A DNA stretch of 64,000 nt. It comes from a virus. The notes under the pieces were generated by a model. The model saw only the letters and a program-made list of their open reading frames with translations. It had not been told where the DNA came from and made no database searches. The stretch is from the IMG/VR virus record IMGVR_UViG_3300014202_000270, one strand, 5' to 3'. A program made the translations under genes and the position numbers. This document shows, one piece after another, positions 6,355-33,120 of this stretch. Each line of letters opens with the position of its first letter. The stretch's first letter is position 1.

Positions 6355-7582
6355 TTTGTTCTTTACGTTTATCGTTTATTTCTATTTGTTCAAGAACAGA
6401 CTCAGCAATTAAAAATTCTGTGTCTATGAAATCGCATTTTACTTTATGCTCAGAGAACATATATTTTTCAATTATCCACTTGTGTTCAGAAAACATATAT
6501 CCTGATTCTAGCAGATGTTTAGAGTCGTTTTCAACAGCTCTTTGACCACCCATAGCACCACGAAATCTATGTGGTGTACTCATCTCTCCTTTATTTAACT
6601 TTGTTCTAACAAACTGCACAACAGCTTGAAAGTTAACATGTTTAAAGTAATCAGAAGAGGCAACACTTTGATAGTTAAGATTCATCAGTAACACTATATA
6701 AAATAGAGATTCTTCAAAATCACAAGAAGCTATTATTTCTAGAGCTGTATCATTATTAGACTGGTCTTGGCTTTCTAACATGTTGTTTAATGACTCAAAC
6801 AACTCTTTATCAATAACTGTTACATTGATTAGCTTAGTAACCTCTGAAGAGTTAATGATTTTCATGTTGTTCTGCAGTGCATAAAGTAAAGCCTGTAATT
6901 TTTCATTGTTTAACTCTACATAGTGACGTAAGTCTATACATATTACATCACCATCTTCATCCTTTTCACGTGTAGGATTAGTGAGAAAATTTACTGTTAA
7001 AGGATCAGGTGCATTTGATAAATTATTAAAATAGATGCGTCTTTGAGTAGAGTCTGGTTCAGATAGCATTCTTCTAAGGTCATAATCTACTCTAACCATA
7101 AGTTTGGTTATAGAATGAGCTTTACATAGTTCTACAATTTTTGCAAACTCTAATTTTATATTTTCTTTTCCTTCATCGCTGTATCCTTGTCTATGCTGTA
7201 AATCAAACTTTACCCAGTTGTGAAGTTCATCTAGATAGATTAATTCATGAGCCCAGGTATACTCAATCATGTTGTCTATGTAACTATCTTTGTTAATAAC
7301 TAAGTAATCAGCTTTTTGAATATCTCTTTTTACCTGTAGAGTTTTATTGTCTTTAAGGGCGCCGAGTTTAGCTCTTGGAATTTTACAGGACTTATCTATG
7401 AATATACTAGGAAAGTTACTAGTGTCAAAAGTAGATAAGTTTAAATGACGCTCTATGTGTCTTTTAAGATGATCTTTATCATCATCTGCTATAATCAACG
7501 GATTTTCAGATAGTGTAATTGTTTTGAAACCTACCTCTTTATTAAAGATTACATTAACAGCTATATGTGTTGGCTTAAGCAT
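6344..7582 (-). CDS. Hypothetical protein (412 aa) downstream of the AAA+/VWA pair
   Basis: Long ORF; no motif recognised. Confidence 0.7.
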   Translation of the reverse strand: MLKPTHIAVNVIFNKEVGFKTITLSENPLIIADDDKDHLKRHIERHLNLSTFDTSNFPSIFIDKSCKIPRAKLGALKDNKTLQVKRDIQKADYLVINKDSYIDNMIEYTWAHELIYLDELHNWVKFDLQHRQGYSDEGKENIKLEFAKIVELCKAHSITKLMVRVDYDLRRMLSEPDSTQRRIYFNNLSNAPDPLTVNFLTNPTREKDEDGDVICIDLRHYVELNNEKLQALLYALQNNMKIINSSEVTKLINVTVIDKELFESLNNMLESQDQSNNDTALEIIASCDFEESLFYIVLLMNLNYQSVASSDYFKHVNFQAVVQFVRTKLNKGEMSTPHRFRGAMGGQRAVENDSKHLLESGYMFSEHKWIIEKYMFSEHKVKCDFIDTEFLIAESVLEQIEINDKRKEQNEL

Positions 7583-7687
7583 AATAGTTTGTTTTTAGCG
7601 GGATGGTTGTTACGCCATCCCGCTGAGTTAAACATTGATTAATTATTCCTTTGTGTTTCTTTACATTTGAAAAGACTGGAAGCTGAA

Positions 7688-9911
7688 TTAGCTCGCAGCC
7701 ATCTTTACTAATTCTGGATTAGTCATAATTTTCTGGAACTTCTGTTTGTTACCAGATAATAATGCACGTACAATAAAGTACTTAATATCCTTAGTAAAGA
7801 TTTCCTCATCTGTAGAAACAGTAATGATTCTTTGAATCATATCTGGGGTAACAGGATTGTTTTCCGCATGCATTAATGCATAGTTTACAATCCGAGTGCC
7901 CATTACACTAGCAATGTCTGCTCTGTAATTATCTCCTCTACCAATGTTGGTGCGTAAAGCGCCTACAATGTATGACATATCTTTGCTGAAGATATCTTTT
8001 GGAGACAATAGTTTATCAAGTTTGTTGTTGATAAACATGGTAAACATACTAGCAAATTCATTACCAACAGAACCTTCACCAATCATTTGAATTAAACCTA
8101 GTGAATCATCAAAAGATTCAATACAAGAGATTGAGTTGAAGAAAGTAGTAATGCTACGAGGGTTGAGTGTGTCAGTAACTAACTCTGGATTCAACAACAA
8201 AAAGTTGATGCATCGAGTGTCAATATTAACTTTCTCTGCCCAGCGGGCCCATACATCAATGTCAAATTTAGTTTCAACAGTGATGAAACGAGTCTTTTGA
8301 GCATTGTCAAGAGATGTAACTTGATAGTTACCATTGTCTGGGTTAGTGGTTAATACAACGTGCCAGTTCTTTGGTAAACGCCAAGAAATATATTCTTGCC
8401 GGTCAATGATTTCCATACAAGCTTGCATAAAGCGGTGCATTTGTGTTAACTCATAGGCTCTTTATCCTATGATTCTGTAGTTTCTTTTAGATTATATCTA
8501 CAGGTCAGACTATATCATCACATATTTCTATGTGTCATGCGCTCGTGGTGTTTTACTGTCTGTTCTAGACTCCATACACTAGTCGTTGCACCTTCCTTAT
8601 ATCCCTATAAGGCTTGGCTCAGGATTGTCCATCTCTGGAGTTTCCCTGAATTCACATGATTTATTGCGGACCACCCGCTTTATGCTTTTTTCCATCTATA
8701 ACCACCAGCAGTTAAGTTCTTAGATATTGCTCTATTAATATTAGAAATACCAAGTTCTTTACTTGCTTGTTTTATAGATTCCCATTTTTTGATAAAAATA
8801 TTATCAATAGTAAATTGTAATACTGGTTCCAGCTTATATTTTTTATCTCTAGAAAAAACTAGATCTACTTTATTATAAGACCAGATATATCCACCTGCAG
8901 AAGTTGAATTACTCATACAAACTGCTTTTATGCCATTAATACTTTTGGCATTAATAGATTTAGCTGCAGCTGTAAGAGATTCATAACTTTCTAAATACTC
9001 ACCTGTATCAAGTGAATACTTATGTACCGCTTTAAGATTATGAGGTTTTAAACCATTTGCAAAAGCTTTTTTTCTAGATATGCTAATCCTTTCTCTATAT
9101 ACAGAATCTCTTACTAAACTTTGTGGGTCTAGTATGTGATTTATATAAGGATTAATCTCTCTAATGTGATAAGCTTCTCTTTCAATTAATACATCTTCAG
9201 TACAAACTTCTAAAACTTCAAAATAGATGTTATTAGCACCATATTTGTTGTATAGATTTTGCATTGTTCTGTTATGATGTTTTAAGTTTTTAAGAGACCA
9301 CAAATGGTGTTTTAACCTATGACCAATATTACAAGAGCTACCAATGTACTCTTTATCATTAATTTTAATTTTATAGATTCCTATACCCTTTAATGCTGTC
9401 TTAAGAGTTTGTGTGTTTAATTTTTCCATACCATAAAGATAATTAAATTATTCACACAAATACTTCTTGACTGCATATTTTGTTAATCCGCGCGGGTATA
9501 ATCATCTAAAATTAAGAAGCCACCTTCACCACGGCCCTGAATCCACTCTGGAGCAGCATGCGTCATACGCTTTGCCCCGGTGGGTTTATATTTAGCTTGA
9601 ATATACATTGACATTACTGAATCTTGAATCCAAACTTTTTTACCGTCATCTTTTACCATCTCAAATTCTTTGACGGGAAAACCAACAAGGTCACCTAATT
9701 CCTCAATCTGAGATAAACTTAGTTTTACAATTTGCATATTAAGCTCTTCAGCTAATTGAAGTAGAGATGAAGTCTTACCAAGACCTGCCTCGCCTTCGAT
9801 ATTCACTGCTACAGGAATCTTTCCTTCTCCTTGAATATGTTGATTGTTTTTTACAATGTGACGTAAGAACTCTTTTAGTTCGTCAAGATTTAGTTTTACT
9901 ACGTTGTTCAT
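7688..9911 (-). CDS. MoxR-like AAA+ ATPase split by a group I intron (exon 1 9486-9911, exon 2 7688-8437; 391 aa spliced)
   Basis: Walker A GEAGLGKT and Walker B LILDD in exon 1; splicing restores DDYTRAD|HRFMQACME; adjacent VWA gene. Confidence 0.9.
8438..9485 (-). mobile_element. Group I intron (1048 nt) carrying a homing endonuclease ORF in loop L1
   Basis: 5' exon ends in U, intron ends in G. Core motifs AATTCAGGGAAAC, GACAATCCTGAGCCAAG, GGTGCAACGACTA, GATATAGTCTG. IGS GCGGGTG-GTCCGC (8666-8678) pairs with 5' exon GCGGAU (U.G at the splice site) and with 3' exon CACCGC. Confidence 0.92.
8680..9429 (-). CDS. Intron-encoded GIY-YIG homing endonuclease with NUMOD1-type repeats
   Basis: GIYKI...YIGSS...RLKHH; C-terminal VHKYSLDTGEYLESYESL and VLQFTIDNIFIKKWESI repeats. 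Confidence 0.9.
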   Translation of the reverse strand: MEKLNTQTLKTALKGIGIYKIKINDKEYIGSSCNIGHRLKHHLWSLKNLKHHNRTMQNLYNKYGANNIYFEVLEVCTEDVLIEREAYHIREINPYINHILDPQSLVRDSVYRERISISRKKAFANGLKPHNLKAVHKYSLDTGEYLESYESLTAAAKSINAKSINGIKAVCMSNSTSAGGYIWSYNKVDLVFSRDKKYKLEPVLQFTIDNIFIKKWESIKQASKELGISNINRAISKNLTAGGYRWKKA

Positions 9912-9921
9912 GTTGATTTAA

Positions 9922-11124
9922 TTAATTGTTTGTTTCTTTTTCTTCTAATTTAACTACTTGTCCAGGTAAGTGATCAAAGTGTGTGGACACTGATGATACT
10001 ACCCATAATACTTTACCTTTTACATCAATTGGTGCAGGTGCTTCTCCATCTGTAAAGAAGATTAGCGCCGTGTACTTTTTAAGATTCTCTCTGTAATAAT
10101 CAATAATAGGTTGAAAATTGGTGCCGCCACGACCATGAATAGTAAACTCTTTTTTTCTAGGATTGAATTCCTCAATAGAAGAGATTGCCGCGTCAGTTTG
10201 TGCAACAGTGATTTTACCACCAGTTTTGTGGATATGAACTAGTTCATTCACAAATTCCTCGAGCTCATCCTTATTAACAGACCCAGATGTATCAATAGCA
10301 ACAAGCAAATGCTTGTGATACTTAATCTTTAAACCAGGGTTATCTTCATAACGTTTGTTATACTTACGTCTTAGCTTCTTTGTGTATGGTATATTAGACC
10401 CACCACTAAAGCGACGTAAATACTGGCGCCAATCAAACTTTGGAGGAATGTCTTGTAGTAGTTCTAAGAGCTCTGCTACTTTACCGGGCATAGTACCTCG
10501 TGTTTTAACTGCAGATTCAGCTTCTTTAAGTAAATGTACAGTTTGTCTTTTAAGAAGCTGTTTGTCAGCATCTGATAAACCTTCAAACTCTTTCCATGTT
10601 GGGTGATCACAAGGAAGCTCCCCACCATTTTCCATTTTTTCAAAAAGTTCATCTGCAGCTTGACAGCCACAACTACCTTTTTTCTGATATTCTTCCTGAG
10701 CGTTTTGTAAAGCTTTGTAATAATAGTCGCTGCCTGCTTTCAGTTCTAGATTTAGTTCAGCATAGTTTTCTATGAAAATACCTTCTTTGGGTAAATCTTC
10801 ACGGTCAATATACTGGTTAATTTCCATGTCAGCGGCTACATTAAAGAGCTCTTTATCACTATAACCATCGTGCAAGTAAAGGTGAAAGAAAGCAATGTGC
10901 ATAAGCTCGTGTTTCAAAATACCTTCTTTGACATTAGGTTGTAAACTATCCCAGAATTCTGGATTTATGCATAGTTTATAGTTAATGCCCATTTTTGCAA
11001 CACCTGCGGTGGGTACTTTATCCTTGTTAAACTCTTTACTAAGAGACAAGGCGAATATCCCATAAAAGGGTTCTTTTAGCATAAGATTTTTTACTGTCTT
11101 TGCTAGGTTTTCATGTCTGTTCAT
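9922..11124 (-). CDS. Metallopeptidase-like (HExxH) plus VWA domain protein (DUF2201-type)
   Basis: LKHELMH; MIDAS motif AIDTSGS, GRGGT, FFTDG. Confidence 0.85.
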   Translation of the reverse strand: MNRHENLAKTVKNLMLKEPFYGIFALSLSKEFNKDKVPTAGVAKMGINYKLCINPEFWDSLQPNVKEGILKHELMHIAFFHLYLHDGYSDKELFNVAADMEINQYIDREDLPKEGIFIENYAELNLELKAGSDYYYKALQNAQEEYQKKGSCGCQAADELFEKMENGGELPCDHPTWKEFEGLSDADKQLLKRQTVHLLKEAESAVKTRGTMPGKVAELLELLQDIPPKFDWRQYLRRFSGGSNIPYTKKLRRKYNKRYEDNPGLKIKYHKHLLVAIDTSGSVNKDELEEFVNELVHIHKTGGKITVAQTDAAISSIEEFNPRKKEFTIHGRGGTNFQPIIDYYRENLKKYTALIFFTDGEAPAPIDVKGKVLWVVSSVSTHFDHLPGQVVKLEEKETNN

Positions 11125-11486
11125 AATATTTGAAAGTTGAATTTTACGGTATAACCCATTGTTTTTAGATTTATTATTGTTTCTGCAGATCTTGACATCT
11201 CATAAAGAATTAATTCTAAAGGCCCTAAGTCATCACTATAGTTTATTATGTCTAAAACTTGAGTATAGGATGTTACTTCAGAATTAGAATTGTAGATTGT
11301 TGCCAAACTTGTAAAATTAGCCTCTTTAAATTCAATAGGTATCCCGCGAAGTTTAATTAGAACTAACCATAATTTAGCTACCATTATGTCTTGGCTATCA
11401 ATAATAAATTTAGCTACTAATTTATCATCGTTTCCTGCTTTTAATTGTTTACATACATTTTCAAATTCATCTATTAAATCACTCAT
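11121..11486 (-). CDS. Hypothetical protein
   Basis: 121-aa ORF, overlapping start/stop. Confidence 0.6.
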   Translation of the reverse strand: MSDLIDEFENVCKQLKAGNDDKLVAKFIIDSQDIMVAKLWLVLIKLRGIPIEFKEANFTSLATIYNSNSEVTSYTQVLDIINYSDDLGPLELILYEMSRSAETIINLKTMGYTVKFNFQIL

Positions 11487-14145: not shown

Positions 14146-15102
14146 TTAAAAGTTAATGATTGATTTACGTACTAGTTCTAGATCGTTAGGAATCTCATCT
14201 GATTCAAACATTTCGAGTGGTGCTTTACATGTGTTATCGCCACTGTTCTTTGTCTCAAAGACATATCTAAGATTATTGTCCTTGTCTTTCTTTACCTTGC
14301 CATATAGTACAATGGAAAATAAACCTTCGAGAGTAAGTTTCTCGTCAATCATTTTGCCGATTGTTTTAGCTTTGGTTTTACGAGCGCCAGCGCTATCATA
14401 AAAGTCTTCAGCATGTGTAAGGAAGAAGATTACAAGATCTTGTCTCAAATCTTTTGGTGTTTTAGCAACAGCTGCTATACCGGCACCAATCTGAGTAAAT
14501 TTCTCATCGTTAAACCTATATACTTTCATATATAGCCGGACTATATCATATTTGATTTTTTTTATAGCATAAATACTTTTATAAATCAAATCCACCTCTT
14601 TAGTCTCTGAACCTTCATCCTTTATAGGAAGCTTGGCTGCGGATTGTCCATTGTACATACTATAGCTTTTTACTATACTGTTGTGATTAGCAACACCCTT
14701 TATTATATTACTATATAAAGTTAGTACCATAGTCTTTAGGATATCCCCGCAATTTAAGTGGTTTTACAAGGGCATGATTTAATTCCACCCTTTTTCTAGA
14801 GCTCTATCAAAGAACTCAAAGCTTGACATATACTGCCAATCATCAATTACAATAGTTTTGATCTCTGGCCGGGATGTGGATACATATTCTAAAGCTTTGA
14901 TAACACCTCCAGGAGTAGATGTATTACTCATGTTACCCTGGGGATAGTCTTTGCTTACAAGTATGTACTTTTCTCGCCAGCCTTTAAAAGGCAAAGGTTT
15001 GTTTGCAACGTTGATAATAAACGTTGTTTCAGGATCTAAAGTGCGGATACTGGTAGACTTACCAGATCCAGACTCAGCAATGATTAAGCATGCTTCGGCC
15101 AT
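14146..15102 (-). CDS. AAA_24/Sak4-like ATPase split by a group I intron (exon 1 14787-15102, exon 2 14146-14507; 225 aa spliced)
   Basis: Walker A AESGSGKS, Walker B IVIDD; splicing joins GGG T|AT GAG to give ALEKG-Y-EKFTQIG in frame. Confidence 0.88.
14508..14786 (-). mobile_element. ORF-less group I intron (279 nt)
   Basis: Core motifs AATTGCGGGGATATCC, GGACAATCCGCAGCCAAG, AGGTTCAGAGACTA, ATGATATAGTCC. P1 exon AAGGGU pairs with intron GCCCUU (U.G at the site); P10 UCAU pairs with 3' exon AUGA; terminal G. Confidence 0.9.
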
Positions 15103-32602: not shown

Positions 32603-33120
32603 AAAATATAGGTCGTTCAGATTATCCTGCTAATAGACCACAGCAGCTTGTTGAGGACTCGCAATCTTTGGTAGATCACTTACAAGGTTAGTATTTTCCC
32701 CCTGTCGGTTGTTATTTCTCATATAAATAGGATTCAACAGATTACCAGTCTGCATCATGTGGCTTAACACATATACTCCTAAATTAATATGGTTCGTCAC
32801 AAACCATTAAGCATCTACCTCTGTGACTTTCTTGAGATAGAGATAAGCGTCAACAAAGAATAAATTCTTTATAATACTTCTAAAGTTATATAACTTCCAC
32901 AACATATCAAGTTGCTTATAACTGCATGGTTTTTAAGTCTGCACAAACGCTTAATCATAGAGATTATATCTCATATGATACCATTACACTCTGCAAAAGT
33001 GTTTGATACTATCTATTTTACTTGCAGTAATAGATAGAATGGTGTCGTTGCCCCACATGCTTGTCAAGGTTTATCAACCTTAAAGAAAAATTTGGAAGCT
33101 TACGGTTTACCAACCTTGGT

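What the first reader, a model, noticed from the sequence alone, without database searches (positions are those of the whole stretch)
7688..9911. Group I intron in a MoxR-like AAA+ gene with its endonuclease in loop L1
Splice sites are resolvable by eye (GAT|TAAC...AAATG|CAC), restoring RAD-HRF. The internal guide sequence lies about 800 nt into the intron, immediately after the GIY-YIG stop codon, and pairs with both exons, which places the ORF in L1. Familiar phage intron hosts are td, nrd, DNA polymerase, terminase and lysin genes. An AAA+ chaperone target looks unusual.
Basis: partly seen in the sequence, partly recalled or inferred. Interest (0 to 1): 0.7.

Follow-up and report, generated by a model that had tools for sequence, protein, structure and literature searches.

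The report
Mobile intron splitting phage MoxR-like ATPase
A 1,048-base self-splicing-type (group I) intron that carries its own DNA-cutting "homing" enzyme gene interrupts an ATPase gene of a distant crAss-like phage. The call is correct in every detail I could check, but it is a new host gene and a rare gene placement for a well-known kind of mobile element, not a new kind.

Summary
Confirmed. On the minus strand, exon 1 (9911-9486, 142 aa) and exon 2 (8437-7688, 249 aa) are separated by a 1,048-nt group I intron (9485-8438). Rfam RF00028 scores 84.9 bits, E 3e-20.

- **Junction:** the RAD|HRF junction matches thousands of uninterrupted 389-391-aa homologues. Two near-identical natural intron-less alleles (L001, L003) break at exactly 9486|8437.
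- **RNA structure:** 24 distinct copies of the same intron at the same site give 99.7% pairing for my P1-P10 model, with 14 pairs changed on both sides (0/500 shuffles).
- **Endonuclease position:** The segment next to it (8678-8672) pairs with exon 2 (P10).
- **Exon flanks:** intron-bearing alleles always carry the P1/P10-complementary codons GCG GAT|CAC CGC. Intron-less alleles rarely do.
- **Host protein:** it folds like NorQ/CbbQ (MoxR family) and sits beside a VWA-like gene.
- **Spread:** the intron is far more conserved than its host exons (92-94% against 64-69%), which indicates horizontal spread.

Splicing and cleavage are inferred, not shown. Introns are already known to be dense in crAss-like phages, and this scan has followed up several in a different (Sak4-like) ATPase. 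Verdict: new member of a known kind.

The parts
9486..9911 (-). Exon 1 of the MoxR-like AAA+ ATPase gene (142 codons; Walker A GEAGLGKTS, Walker B LILDD, ends ..YTRAD)
   Evidence: It aligns to residues 1-142 of continuous 391-aa homologues and to phrog_1297 positions 19-112.
8438..9485 (-). Group I intron, 1,048 nt. It begins UAA (in-frame stop) and ends with G (omega-G).
   Evidence: The stretch is exactly absent from intron-less alleles L001 and L003. Rfam hit. Covariation.
9430..9485 (-). Intron 5' leader (nt 1-56) before the endonuclease start codon. It contains the P1-extension strand UAUGC (9477-9473).
   Evidence: UAUGC/GCAUA is paired in 24/24 copies but almost invariant, so it is uninformative.
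8680..9429 (-). Homing endonuclease gene (249 aa + stop): N-terminal GIY-YIG domain and C-terminal NUMOD1 DNA-binding motif. It lies inside loop L1.
   Evidence: NUMOD1 at 34.3 bits; GIY-YIG at 20.8 bits, just under the 22.6 cut-off. TIGR01453 at 61 bits, over the 56 cut-off. I-TevI catalytic domain 1MK0, E 5e-7. The ORF is intact in all 24 distinct copies.
8672..8678 (-). 5' part of the guide region, GCGGGUG. It pairs with exon 2 CACCGC (P10, with G at 8674 bulged).
   Evidence: 97% of cells paired, with one G-C to U-A double change at exon position +3.
8665..8671 (-). Internal guide sequence GUCCGC(A). It pairs with exon-1 GCGGAU (9491-9486; the 7th pair would involve 9492) to form P1, with U.G at the splice site.
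   Evidence: six pairs hold in 24/24 copies. The 7th pair is U-A in 20 copies and G-C in 2 (a double change across 815 nt). In the window itself it is a C.A mismatch.
8438..8659 (-). Ribozyme core: P3, P4, P5, P6/P6a, P7, P7.1, P7.2, P8, P9, P9.1 and the terminal G. There is no P2.
   Evidence: Rfam alignment. Helix-by-helix counts: double changes in P3 (3 pairs), P7.1, P7.2, P9 (2 pairs) and P9.1 (5 pairs).
7688..8437 (-). Exon 2 of the ATPase gene (249 codons + stop; starts HRFMQACMEI)
   Evidence: It matches phrog_1297 positions 116-344.
9922..11124 (-). Gene on the same strand, immediately 5' of the ATPase: putative metallopeptidase domain plus VWA-like domain, the usual kind of partner for a MoxR-type ATPase
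   Evidence: Pfam DUF2201_N at 81.6 bits and DUF2201 (VWA-like) at 56.7 bits.

Best explanation
This is a mobile group I intron of the IA type (it has P7.1/P7.2 and no P2). It sits in the MoxR-like AAA+ ATPase gene of a distant crAss-like phage, directly after the Walker B/RAD motif.

**Splicing (inferred from the anatomy).** The gene is transcribed as one pre-mRNA.
- The last six exon-1 bases, GCGGAU, pair with GUCCGC 815 nt downstream to form P1.
- The adjacent GCGGGUG pairs with exon-2 CACCGC to form P10.
- The core then removes the 1,048 nt in two guanosine-initiated transesterifications, joining GAT-CAC to give a 391-aa protein.
- Unspliced RNA stops at the UAA that opens the intron.

**Homing (inferred by analogy with I-TevI).** The I-TevI-like GIY-YIG/NUMOD1 endonuclease is encoded in the long P1 loop. 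During mixed infection it would cut intron-less alleles near this site. Repair from the intron-bearing genome would copy in the intron plus a few flanking exon bases.

**Shown here:** the ribozyme structure, by model match and covariation; the exact insertion point; the presence/absence polymorphism; intact endonuclease genes; and an intron far more conserved than its host exons.

**Not shown:** splicing itself and DNA cleavage.
For: - **Ribozyme match:** RF00028 at 84.9 bits, E 3e-20.
- **Uninterrupted homologues:** 5,081 homologues were found, mostly 389-391 aa and continuous across TRAD-HRF.
- **Exact boundaries:** L001 (97% identical) and L003 (from a 118-kb viral genome) lack exactly window 8438-9485.
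- **Same site elsewhere:** 37 IMG/VR contigs carry the same intron at the same site. All complete copies are 1,047-1,050 nt, apart from a 1,523-nt variant, L101.
- **Covariation:** on 24 distinct copies, 99.7% of cells pair and 14 pairs change on both sides. 0/500 shuffles reach this, and slid registers give 0-1 such pairs.
- **Exon codon choice:** intron-bearing alleles have GCG GAT in 20/20 distinct 45-nt upstream flanks (also 24/24 distinct copies), against 2/73 intron-less alleles. They have Arg CGC in 24/24, against 7/73, where AGA dominates. This fits a P1/P10 constraint, co-conversion, or both.
- **Relative conservation:** identity to the window is 92-94% for the ribozyme and 84-86% for the endonuclease gene, but 64-69% for exon 2.
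- **Endonuclease:** TIGR01453 at 61 bits, over the 56 cut-off. I-TevI 1MK0 at E 5e-7, with the Arg and Glu that I recall as catalytic in I-TevI aligned. The ORF is intact in 24/24 copies, with about 35 synonymous against 45 non-synonymous codon differences.
- **Host protein:** AlphaFold2 pLDDT 94; nearest solved structures are NorQ and CbbQ2; midasin profile hit at E 1e-25.
Against: - There is no RNA evidence.
- P1 positions -1 to -6 never vary, so the long-range helix rests on one double change at -7 plus position and codon choice. In the window itself, -7 is a C.A mismatch.
- GCGG (8678-8675) can also pair locally with CCGC (8669-8666). It occupies the place where a sister intron in a DNA polymerase gene has a hairpin that I read, by position only, as P2. 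One copy breaks this hairpin while keeping P10.
- Covariation counts come from related sequences and count cells, not independent events.
- The window endonuclease scores just under Pfam's GIY-YIG cut-off (20.8 against 22.6 bits).
Confidence: 0.9

Rival explanations
1. The intron is real, but the endonuclease gene is not in L1. On this view the GCGG...CCGC hairpin right after the ORF is a P2-like hairpin, P1 uses a different guide sequence, and the ORF sits in another peripheral element.
For: The local hairpin 8678-8675/8669-8666 pairs in 23/24 copies. It occupies the position of the hairpin that I read as P2 in a sister intron in a DNA polymerase gene (L087). Two other 6-bp matches to the exon tail, allowing wobble pairs, exist inside the ORF at intron positions 279 and 564.
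Against: - The 56-nt leader contains no complement to GCGGAU.
- The candidates at 279 and 564 lie inside coding sequence, far from the core.
- GUCCGC sits 6 nt before P3, with the P10 complement directly 5' of it, which is the canonical layout.
- The -7 pair covaries with the exon (U-A to G-C).
- In L100, position 811 changes to U. This breaks the hairpin but restores a pair with exon-2 A.
- Intron-bearing alleles are fixed for GCGGAT and CGC.
Confidence: 0.06
2. The element is a decaying or splicing-defective intron, so in this phage the ATPase gene is effectively broken or only makes the 142-aa N-terminal fragment.
For: Splicing was not observed. The -7 P1 pair is mismatched in the window. 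Long-range P1 formation across 815 nt may be inefficient.
Against: - All core helices are intact and 100% paired in the window copy.
- Both exons are intact and 99% identical in protein to the uninterrupted P0001.
- The same intron is kept with intact ORFs in 24 distinct backgrounds.
- L110 carries a nearly identical copy.
Confidence: 0.03
3. It is a split gene: two separate polypeptides (a P-loop half and a lid half) with a free-standing endonuclease gene between them, and no splicing.
For: Gene callers report the halves as separate 141-142-aa and 250-251-aa proteins in several metagenomes.
Against: - A full ribozyme lies between the halves.
- Exon 2 has no start codon of its own apart from the ATG formed by the last three intron bases.
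- The break falls between Walker B and sensor 1, inside one AAA+ fold.
- Intron-less alleles are precisely continuous.
Confidence: 0.01

Closest known systems
Phage T4 td intron with I-TevI (group IA2 intron carrying a GIY-YIG homing endonuclease)
   Same: - Group I intron of the IA type (P7.1/P7.2) in a phage protein-coding gene.
- The endonuclease is of similar size, with an N-terminal GIY-YIG domain related to I-TevI (1MK0, E 5e-7) and a C-terminal DNA-binding module.
- An in-frame stop codon lies at or near the intron start.
- The insertion is in a highly conserved motif of the host protein.
   Different: - From my own knowledge, the td ORF loops out of P6a. Here the ORF lies in L1, so the two strands of P1 are 815 nt apart.
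- There is no P2.
- The host gene is a MoxR-like ATPase, not a nucleotide-metabolism gene.
- Cleavage was not tested. A CNNNG motif at the I-TevI-like distance is no more frequent in intron-less alleles (28/74) than in intron-bearing ones (5/20).
Group I introns of crAss-like phages (Yutin et al. 2021, PMC7886860)
   Same: - The phage's large terminase is most similar to crAss-like phages, at about 25% identity.
- That paper reports group I introns in core genes (MCP, PolB, primase, ATP_43b) and a high intron density in some groups.
- The window holds a second group I intron at 14517-14822.
   Different: - ATP_43b appears to be the small Sak4-like ATPase. The host of the window's second intron matches Bacteroides crAss-like phages.
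- The MoxR-like protein finds no crAss-like phage among GenBank phages. Its best match is a Vibrio phage 'MoxR-like ATPase' at 28% identity.
- That paper found its introns through protein domains, not RNA structure.
Group I introns with the endonuclease gene in P1: nuclear S1389 introns of myxomycetes (PMC8395846) and a fungal mitochondrial cox3 intron (PMC4964425)
   Same: The endonuclease gene is inserted as an extension of P1, between the 5' splice site and the guide sequence.
   Different: - Those are eukaryotic nuclear rDNA or mitochondrial introns with His-Cys box or LAGLIDADG enzymes.
- This one is a phage intron in an mRNA with a GIY-YIG enzyme.
- Here translation of the ORF runs to within 9 nt of the guide sequence, and in two copies it runs through it.
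NorQ/CbbQ-type MoxR AAA+ ATPases with VWA partners (NorD, CbbO)
   Same: - NorQ and CbbQ2 are the best structural matches: Foldseek E about 1e-8 and TM about 0.6 normalised by target length.
- Walker A and B motifs are present.
- The adjacent gene has a VWA-like domain.
   Different: - Sequence identity is only 12-15%.
- Pfam AAA_5/AAA_3 matches are below threshold.
- There is an extra helical region of about 140 residues at the C-terminus.
- The partner carries a metallopeptidase-like domain (DUF2201_N).
- The function in the phage is unknown.

Membership tests
Group I intron (Rfam RF00028) | Covariance-model match above the curated gathering score | tested here: met
   84.9 bits against 50, E 3.4e-20, full model 1-253. 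Relatives L083 (79.9 bits) and L002 (71.8 bits) also pass. L084 and L086 did not reach the threshold with default filters, although they align throughout.
Group I intron (Rfam RF00028) | Conserved core helices P3-P9, including the P3/P7 pseudoknot, supported by compensatory changes | tested here: met
   77 pairs, 99.7% paired, 14 with double changes, 0/500 shuffles. P4, P5, P6, P7 and P8 show no double changes and are therefore uninformative.
Group I intron (Rfam RF00028) | [quoted passage not shown] | tested here: met
   Exon GCGGAU pairs with GUCCGC in 24/24 copies, and the U.G pair never varies. Position -7 covaries (U-A 20, G-C 2). GCG GAT is fixed in intron-bearing alleles but present in 2/73 intron-less ones.
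Group I intron (Rfam RF00028) | Terminal G (omega-G) and precise excision that restores the reading frame | tested here: met
   G at 8438 in all copies. Removing 8438-9485 gives a 391-codon frame collinear with P0001, and L001/L003 lack exactly this stretch.
Group I intron (Rfam RF00028) | Guanosine-dependent self-splicing of the RNA | not testable with these tools
This needs in-vitro splicing or RT-PCR.
Subgroup IA | Extra helices P7.1 and P7.2 between P7 and P3' | tested here: met
   Two 4-bp helices, each with one compensatory change in 7 of 24 copies. The finer subgroup (IA1, IA2 or IA3) was not tested.
GIY-YIG homing endonucleases of the I-TevI type (TIGR01453) | N-terminal GIY-YIG catalytic domain with the conserved Arg and Glu | tested here: met
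   TIGR01453 at 61 bits, over the 56.05 cut-off. I-TevI 1MK0/1LN0 at E 5e-7, with GIY, YIG, Arg and Glu aligned. The Pfam GIY-YIG match is just below its cut-off, 20.8 against 22.6 bits.
GIY-YIG homing endonucleases of the I-TevI type (TIGR01453) | C-terminal sequence-specific DNA-binding module | tested here: met
   NUMOD1 at 34.3 bits, over the 22.8 cut-off, residues 202-229.
GIY-YIG homing endonucleases of the I-TevI type (TIGR01453) | Cleavage of the intron-less allele near the insertion site | not testable with these tools
   Indirect evidence only: a presence/absence polymorphism, and an intron more conserved than its exons.
MoxR family of AAA+ ATPases | Sequence match to AAA_5/AAA_3 (MoxR/dynein/midasin clade) profiles | tested here: inconclusive
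   AAA_5 at 15.8-19.7 bits (cut-off 22) and AAA_3 at 16-17 bits (cut-off 27). A family profile hits midasin AAA domains at E 1e-25, MoxR 2R44 at 5e-4 and CobS at 1.6e-3.
MoxR family of AAA+ ATPases | AAA+ fold closest to solved MoxR-family members | tested here: met
   Model pLDDT 94.4. Foldseek ranks 1-19 are NorQ and CbbQ2 ('a MoxR AAA+-ATPase'), E 9e-9 to 4e-7.
MoxR family of AAA+ ATPases | Neighbouring gene for a VWA-domain partner | tested here: met
   DUF2201 (VWA-like) at 56.7 bits in the adjacent gene 9922-11124. Binding was not tested.

The most novel reading that the evidence does not exclude
One ribozyme lineage is actively retargeting within and between genes of these freshwater crAss-like phages.

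- The same 23-nt P4-P6 core occurs in four places: at the RAD|HRF site; inside the Walker A motif (GEAGI|GKTS) of the same ATPase family, with a different GIY-YIG gene that is again 5' of the core; in a family A DNA polymerase gene; and as an ORF-less copy in another gene.
- With the ORF ending 9 nt before the guide sequence, translation of the endonuclease and formation of P1/P10 should exclude each other. In two copies the ORF runs through the guide sequence.
- If so, the L1 placement would couple endonuclease expression to delayed splicing of the ATPase mRNA.
Probability: 0.2. Interest if true: 0.55.

Novelty: new member of a known kind. Interest (0 to 1): 0.35.

Why it matters
**Annotation.** Gene callers split this ATPase into two 'hypothetical proteins' plus an endonuclease in many metagenomes. 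Recognising the intron restores a 391-aa MoxR-like protein.

**Biology.**
- It adds a MoxR-type ATPase to the list of phage genes invaded by group I introns.
- It gives a natural series for studying homing, co-conversion and target switching of GIY-YIG endonucleases. The series comprises intron-less alleles, 24 distinct intron-bearing alleles, a two-endonuclease variant, and a sister intron at Walker A.
- It provides a phage example of an endonuclease gene lodged in P1, where the two strands of the substrate helix must find each other across about 800 nt.

None of this changes the known picture of how such elements work.

Tried and rejected
- **GenBank phage searches:** megablast of 7000-11200 and tblastn of exon 2 found nothing. 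Only the full-length protein at a relaxed E-value found distant 'MoxR-like ATPase' genes.
- **Own genome:** the window's assembly is not held. The nearest viral record, G001, has no RF00028 match and carries the intron-less allele.
- **The search for related loci with alignment A1:** it failed for lack of conserved stretches, so I repeated it with P0001.
- **I-TevI-style cleavage motif:** CNNNG at -25 is present in 28/74 intron-less and 5/20 intron-bearing alleles, which is no signal. The cluster of synonymous differences between the window and L001 at -25 to -22 is therefore not interpretable.
- **P1 extension UAUGC/GCAUA:** paired in 24/24 copies but nearly invariant, so it is neither supported nor refuted.
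- **Ungapped 4-bp P10 (GGUG/CACC):** it holds in the window but in only 13/24 copies at its third pair. The model with one bulged G fits better, at 23/24 for that pair.
- **Rfam's first helix:** in the window hit it falls inside the ORF and has several non-standard pairs marked. I did not use it.
- **Supplements of PMC7886860:** they hold no mapping of ATP_43b to Pfam names.
Full report
**1. What is there**

The feature lies on the minus strand. Three ORFs follow one another.
- ORF 9911-9483 (142 aa) has a Walker A motif (GEAGLGKTS) and ends LILDDYTRAD followed by TAA.
- ORF 9429-8680 is 249 aa.
- ORF 8440-7688 begins M-HRFMQACMEI.

Rfam's group I intron model matches 8724-8488(-) over its full length at 84.9 bits, against a gathering score of 50, with E 3.4e-20. 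The same scan found a second group I intron at 14517-14822(-) and a Hatchet ribozyme at 32924-33087(-).

**2. Splice sites**

- exon 1: 9911-9486;
- intron: 9485-8438 (1,048 nt, UAAC...AAAUG);
- exon 2: 8437-7688.

Three independent lines confirm them.

(a) Exon 2 finds 5,081 homologues, most of them 389-391 aa long. Aligned with both exons, they run without a gap through ...LILDDYTRAD-HRFMQA.... Exon 1 and exon 2 also match consecutive parts of one PHROG profile: phrog_1297 positions 19-112 and 116-344.

(b) Intron-less alleles exist as DNA. Contig L001 is 96-97% identical to the window and aligns as two blocks: L001 1-827 to window 10312-9486, and 828-2686 to 8437-6579. The 1,048 nt are exactly missing. 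The nearest complete viral genome, IMG/VR record L003 = G001 (118,243 bp), carries the same uninterrupted 391-codon gene and has no RF00028 match.

(c) Divergent phages carry the same insertion at the same codon boundary (...GCGGAT|TAAY...AATG|CAMCGC). Their ATPase exons are only 64-69% identical in DNA to the window.

**3. The RNA structure**

A 23-nt core word retrieved 48 IMG/VR contigs.
- 37 are this intron at this site. All complete copies are 1,047-1,050 nt, apart from a 1,523-nt variant, L101.
- With the copies, that gives 24 distinct full-length sequences (alignment A3).

I defined the helices on the window sequence, counting intron position n as window coordinate 9486-n:

| Helix | Positions |
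|---|---|
| P1 | exon -7..-1 with 815-821 |
| P1 extension (possible) | 9-13 with 801-805 |
| P10 | 808-811 and 813-814 with exon 2 +6..+1 |
| P3 | 827-833 with 945-951 |
| P4 | 837-842 with 862-867 |
| P5 | 847-850 with 855-858 |
| P6 | 868-870 with 894-896 |
| P6a | 874-880 with 885-891 |
| P7 | 902-906 with 974-978 |
| P7.1 | 907-910 with 935-938 |
| P7.2 | 916-919 with 925-928 |
| P8 | 952-957 with 962-967 |
| P9 | 983-988 with 1006-1011 |
| P9.1 | 1014-1020 with 1029-1035 |

On A3, 99.7% of 1,848 cells form standard pairs, and 14 of 77 pairs show changes on both sides. No shuffle out of 500 reaches the observed values, and sliding the partners by 1-3 columns leaves 0-1 such pairs. The compensatory changes fall in P3 (3 pairs), P7.1, P7.2, P9 (2 pairs), P9.1 (5 pairs), P1 (1 pair) and P10 (1 pair). 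P4-P8 show no double changes and add nothing either way. These sequences are related, so the counts are cells and not independent events.

P7.1/P7.2 place the intron in subgroup IA. There is no P2: only six bases separate the guide sequence from P3.

**4. Is the endonuclease gene really in L1?**

- The guide sequence GUCCGC (8671-8666) starts 9 nt after the ORF's stop codon (8682-8680).
- The 56-nt leader between the 5' splice site and the ORF start holds no complement to GCGGAU.
- Allowing wobble pairs, two other 6-bp matches exist inside the ORF. A 6-bp match somewhere in 1,048 nt is expected by chance (52% of shuffles), but one within 30 nt of P3 is not (1.9%).

Further support:
- The pair at exon position -7 is U-A in 20 copies and G-C in 2, a double change between sites 815 nt apart. 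In the window it is a C.A mismatch, which leaves a 6-bp P1.
- Directly 5' of the guide, GCGGGUG pairs with exon 2 CACCGC if one G is bulged. In L100, where exon 2 reads CAACGC, the partner has changed G to U.
- The exons themselves carry the signature. GCG GAT occurs in 20/20 distinct 45-nt upstream flanks and in all 24 distinct copies, and CGC for Arg occurs in 24/24. Among 73 intron-less alleles, GCG GAT occurs twice, GAC replaces GAT in 44, and Arg is AGA in 66. A GAC allele could not form the U.G pair.

This pattern fits selection for P1/P10, co-conversion of short exon flanks during homing, or both.

One competing structure exists. GCGG (8678-8675) can pair locally with CCGC (8669-8666), at the place where a sister intron in a polymerase gene has a hairpin that I read as P2 by position only. 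It shows only one-sided (wobble) changes, and the L100 change breaks it while keeping P10. I take it as a possible alternative conformer and not as evidence against L1. I put the L1 placement at about 0.85.

**5. The endonuclease**

- The 249-aa protein matches NUMOD1 above threshold and GIY-YIG just below it.
- It matches homing-endonuclease PHROGs.
- It matches NCBIfam TIGR01453 'group I intron endonuclease' above its cut-off.
- It matches the I-TevI catalytic domain (1MK0, E 5e-7), with the GIY and YIG motifs, the Arg and the Glu aligned.
- The ORF is intact in all 24 distinct copies. In two copies (L100, L102) a 2-nt insertion near the ORF's 3' end shifts the frame, so the ORF (256 aa) reads on through the guide sequence.
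- Against the window there are about 35 synonymous and 45 non-synonymous codon differences. This indicates moderate purifying selection.

**6. Mobility**

Identity to the window is 92-94% for the ribozyme and 84-86% for the endonuclease gene, but only 64-69% for exon 2 of the same contigs. The intron is therefore much younger than the divergence of its hosts. Together with the presence/absence polymorphism between near-identical phages, this is what homing predicts. Cleavage itself is untested. A CNNNG motif at the I-TevI-like distance does not separate the two kinds of allele.

**7. The host gene and phage**

- Pfam gives only sub-threshold AAA_5/AAA_3 matches for the full-length protein.
- A 58-sequence family profile hits midasin AAA domains (E 1e-25), MoxR 2R44 and CobS.
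- An AlphaFold2 model (pLDDT 94.4) has NorQ and CbbQ2, both MoxR-family ATPases that work with VWA partners, as its 19 best solved matches.
- The adjacent gene (9922-11124) has a metallopeptidase-like domain and a VWA-like domain. 'MoxR-like' is therefore a fair name. Its role in the phage is unknown.
- The intron sits between Walker B and the following helix, a nearly invariant stretch of the family. That is typical of homing sites.
- The large terminase is most similar to crAss-like phages, at about 25% identity. Replication genes (primase, DnaB-like helicase, resolvase, exonuclease) surround the ATPase.

**8. Comparison with what is known**

- Group I introns with GIY-YIG endonucleases in phage genes are textbook (T4 td/I-TevI; review PMC3984707).
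- ATP_43b appears to be the other ATPase of this window, the Sak4-like gene that holds the second intron. It matches Bacteroides crAss-like phages. The MoxR-like protein finds none.
- I found no paper linking group I introns with MoxR genes.
- Endonuclease genes in P1 are documented in nuclear rDNA introns of myxomycetes (PMC8395846) and in a fungal mitochondrial intron (PMC4964425). I know of no phage example, but I could not search for one exhaustively.
- Earlier notes of this scan describe several introns in the Sak4-like ATPase of crAss-like phages. None describes this gene.

**9. Side observations in relatives**

- L095 and L105 carry a sister intron with the same core word in the same ATPase family, but inside Walker A (GEAGI|GKTS). 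It has its own GIY-YIG/NUMOD1 gene, again 5' of the core.
- L101 has the RAD|HRF intron enlarged to 1,523 nt by a second, LAGLIDADG-type ORF.
- Other sister introns sit in a family A DNA polymerase gene, with the ORF 3' of the core, and ORF-less in another gene.

**10. Verdict**

It is a well-formed, probably active mobile group I intron in a new host gene, with an uncommon but precedented ORF position. Splicing and cleavage remain to be shown experimentally.

Noticed in passing
window 14517-14822 (-): A second group I intron (RF00028, 60.6 bits) splits a small P-loop ATPase. Exon 1 is about 15102-14823 (MAEACLIIAESGSGKST...), and exon 2 starts near EKFTQIG and runs to 14146. This ATPase matches Bacteroides and Flavobacterium crAss-like phages, so it is probably the 'ATP_43b' of the literature.
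   Followed up: partly
window 32924-33087 (-): Hatchet self-cleaving ribozyme (RF02678, 64.1 bits against a gathering score of 51). The match is interrupted by a large insertion within the stem between the conserved 5' and 3' parts.
   Followed up: no
L095:10065-11075 (also L105): A sister intron with the same P4-P6 core word sits in the same MoxR-like gene family, but inside the Walker A motif (GEAGI|GKTS). It has a different 262-aa GIY-YIG/NUMOD1 gene, again upstream of the ribozyme core, whose 3' end overlaps the presumed guide region. The RAD|HRF site is uninterrupted there.
   Followed up: partly
L101:2478-4000: The same RAD|HRF intron is enlarged to about 1,523 nt. It holds the GIY-YIG ORF plus a second 149-aa LAGLIDADG-type ORF between it and P4. 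The usual guide/P3 sequence is not at its normal place, so how or whether this copy splices is unclear.
   Followed up: no
L087, L091, L094, L097, L104, L126 (type A); L096, L106 (type C): Introns sharing the identical 23-nt core occur in a family A DNA polymerase gene (between ...SNPNI and QQIP...), with a 259-aa ORF 3' of P8, and as short ORF-less copies in a Gly/Ala-rich, probably structural, gene. One ribozyme lineage therefore occupies several genes of these phages.
   Followed up: no
L100 and L102 (intron copies): A 2-nt insertion near the 3' end of the endonuclease ORF shifts the frame, so the ORF (256 aa) reads through the P10 strand and the guide sequence. Translation and P1 formation would then overlap physically.
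   Followed up: no
representatives P0121, P0123, P0129, P0133, P0134, P0212: Several relatives of the ATPase are 415-497 aa long and match in two stretches. Many other representatives start near residues 59, 74-75, 89-95 or 141-150. This hints at further insertions (inteins or read-through introns) or other split points in this gene family.
   Followed up: no
intron-less alleles among L003-L082: Seven of 73 intron-less alleles carry the intron-type Arg codon CGC, and one has the full GCGGAT-CACCGC context. These could be naive homing sites or footprints of precise intron loss.
   Followed up: no
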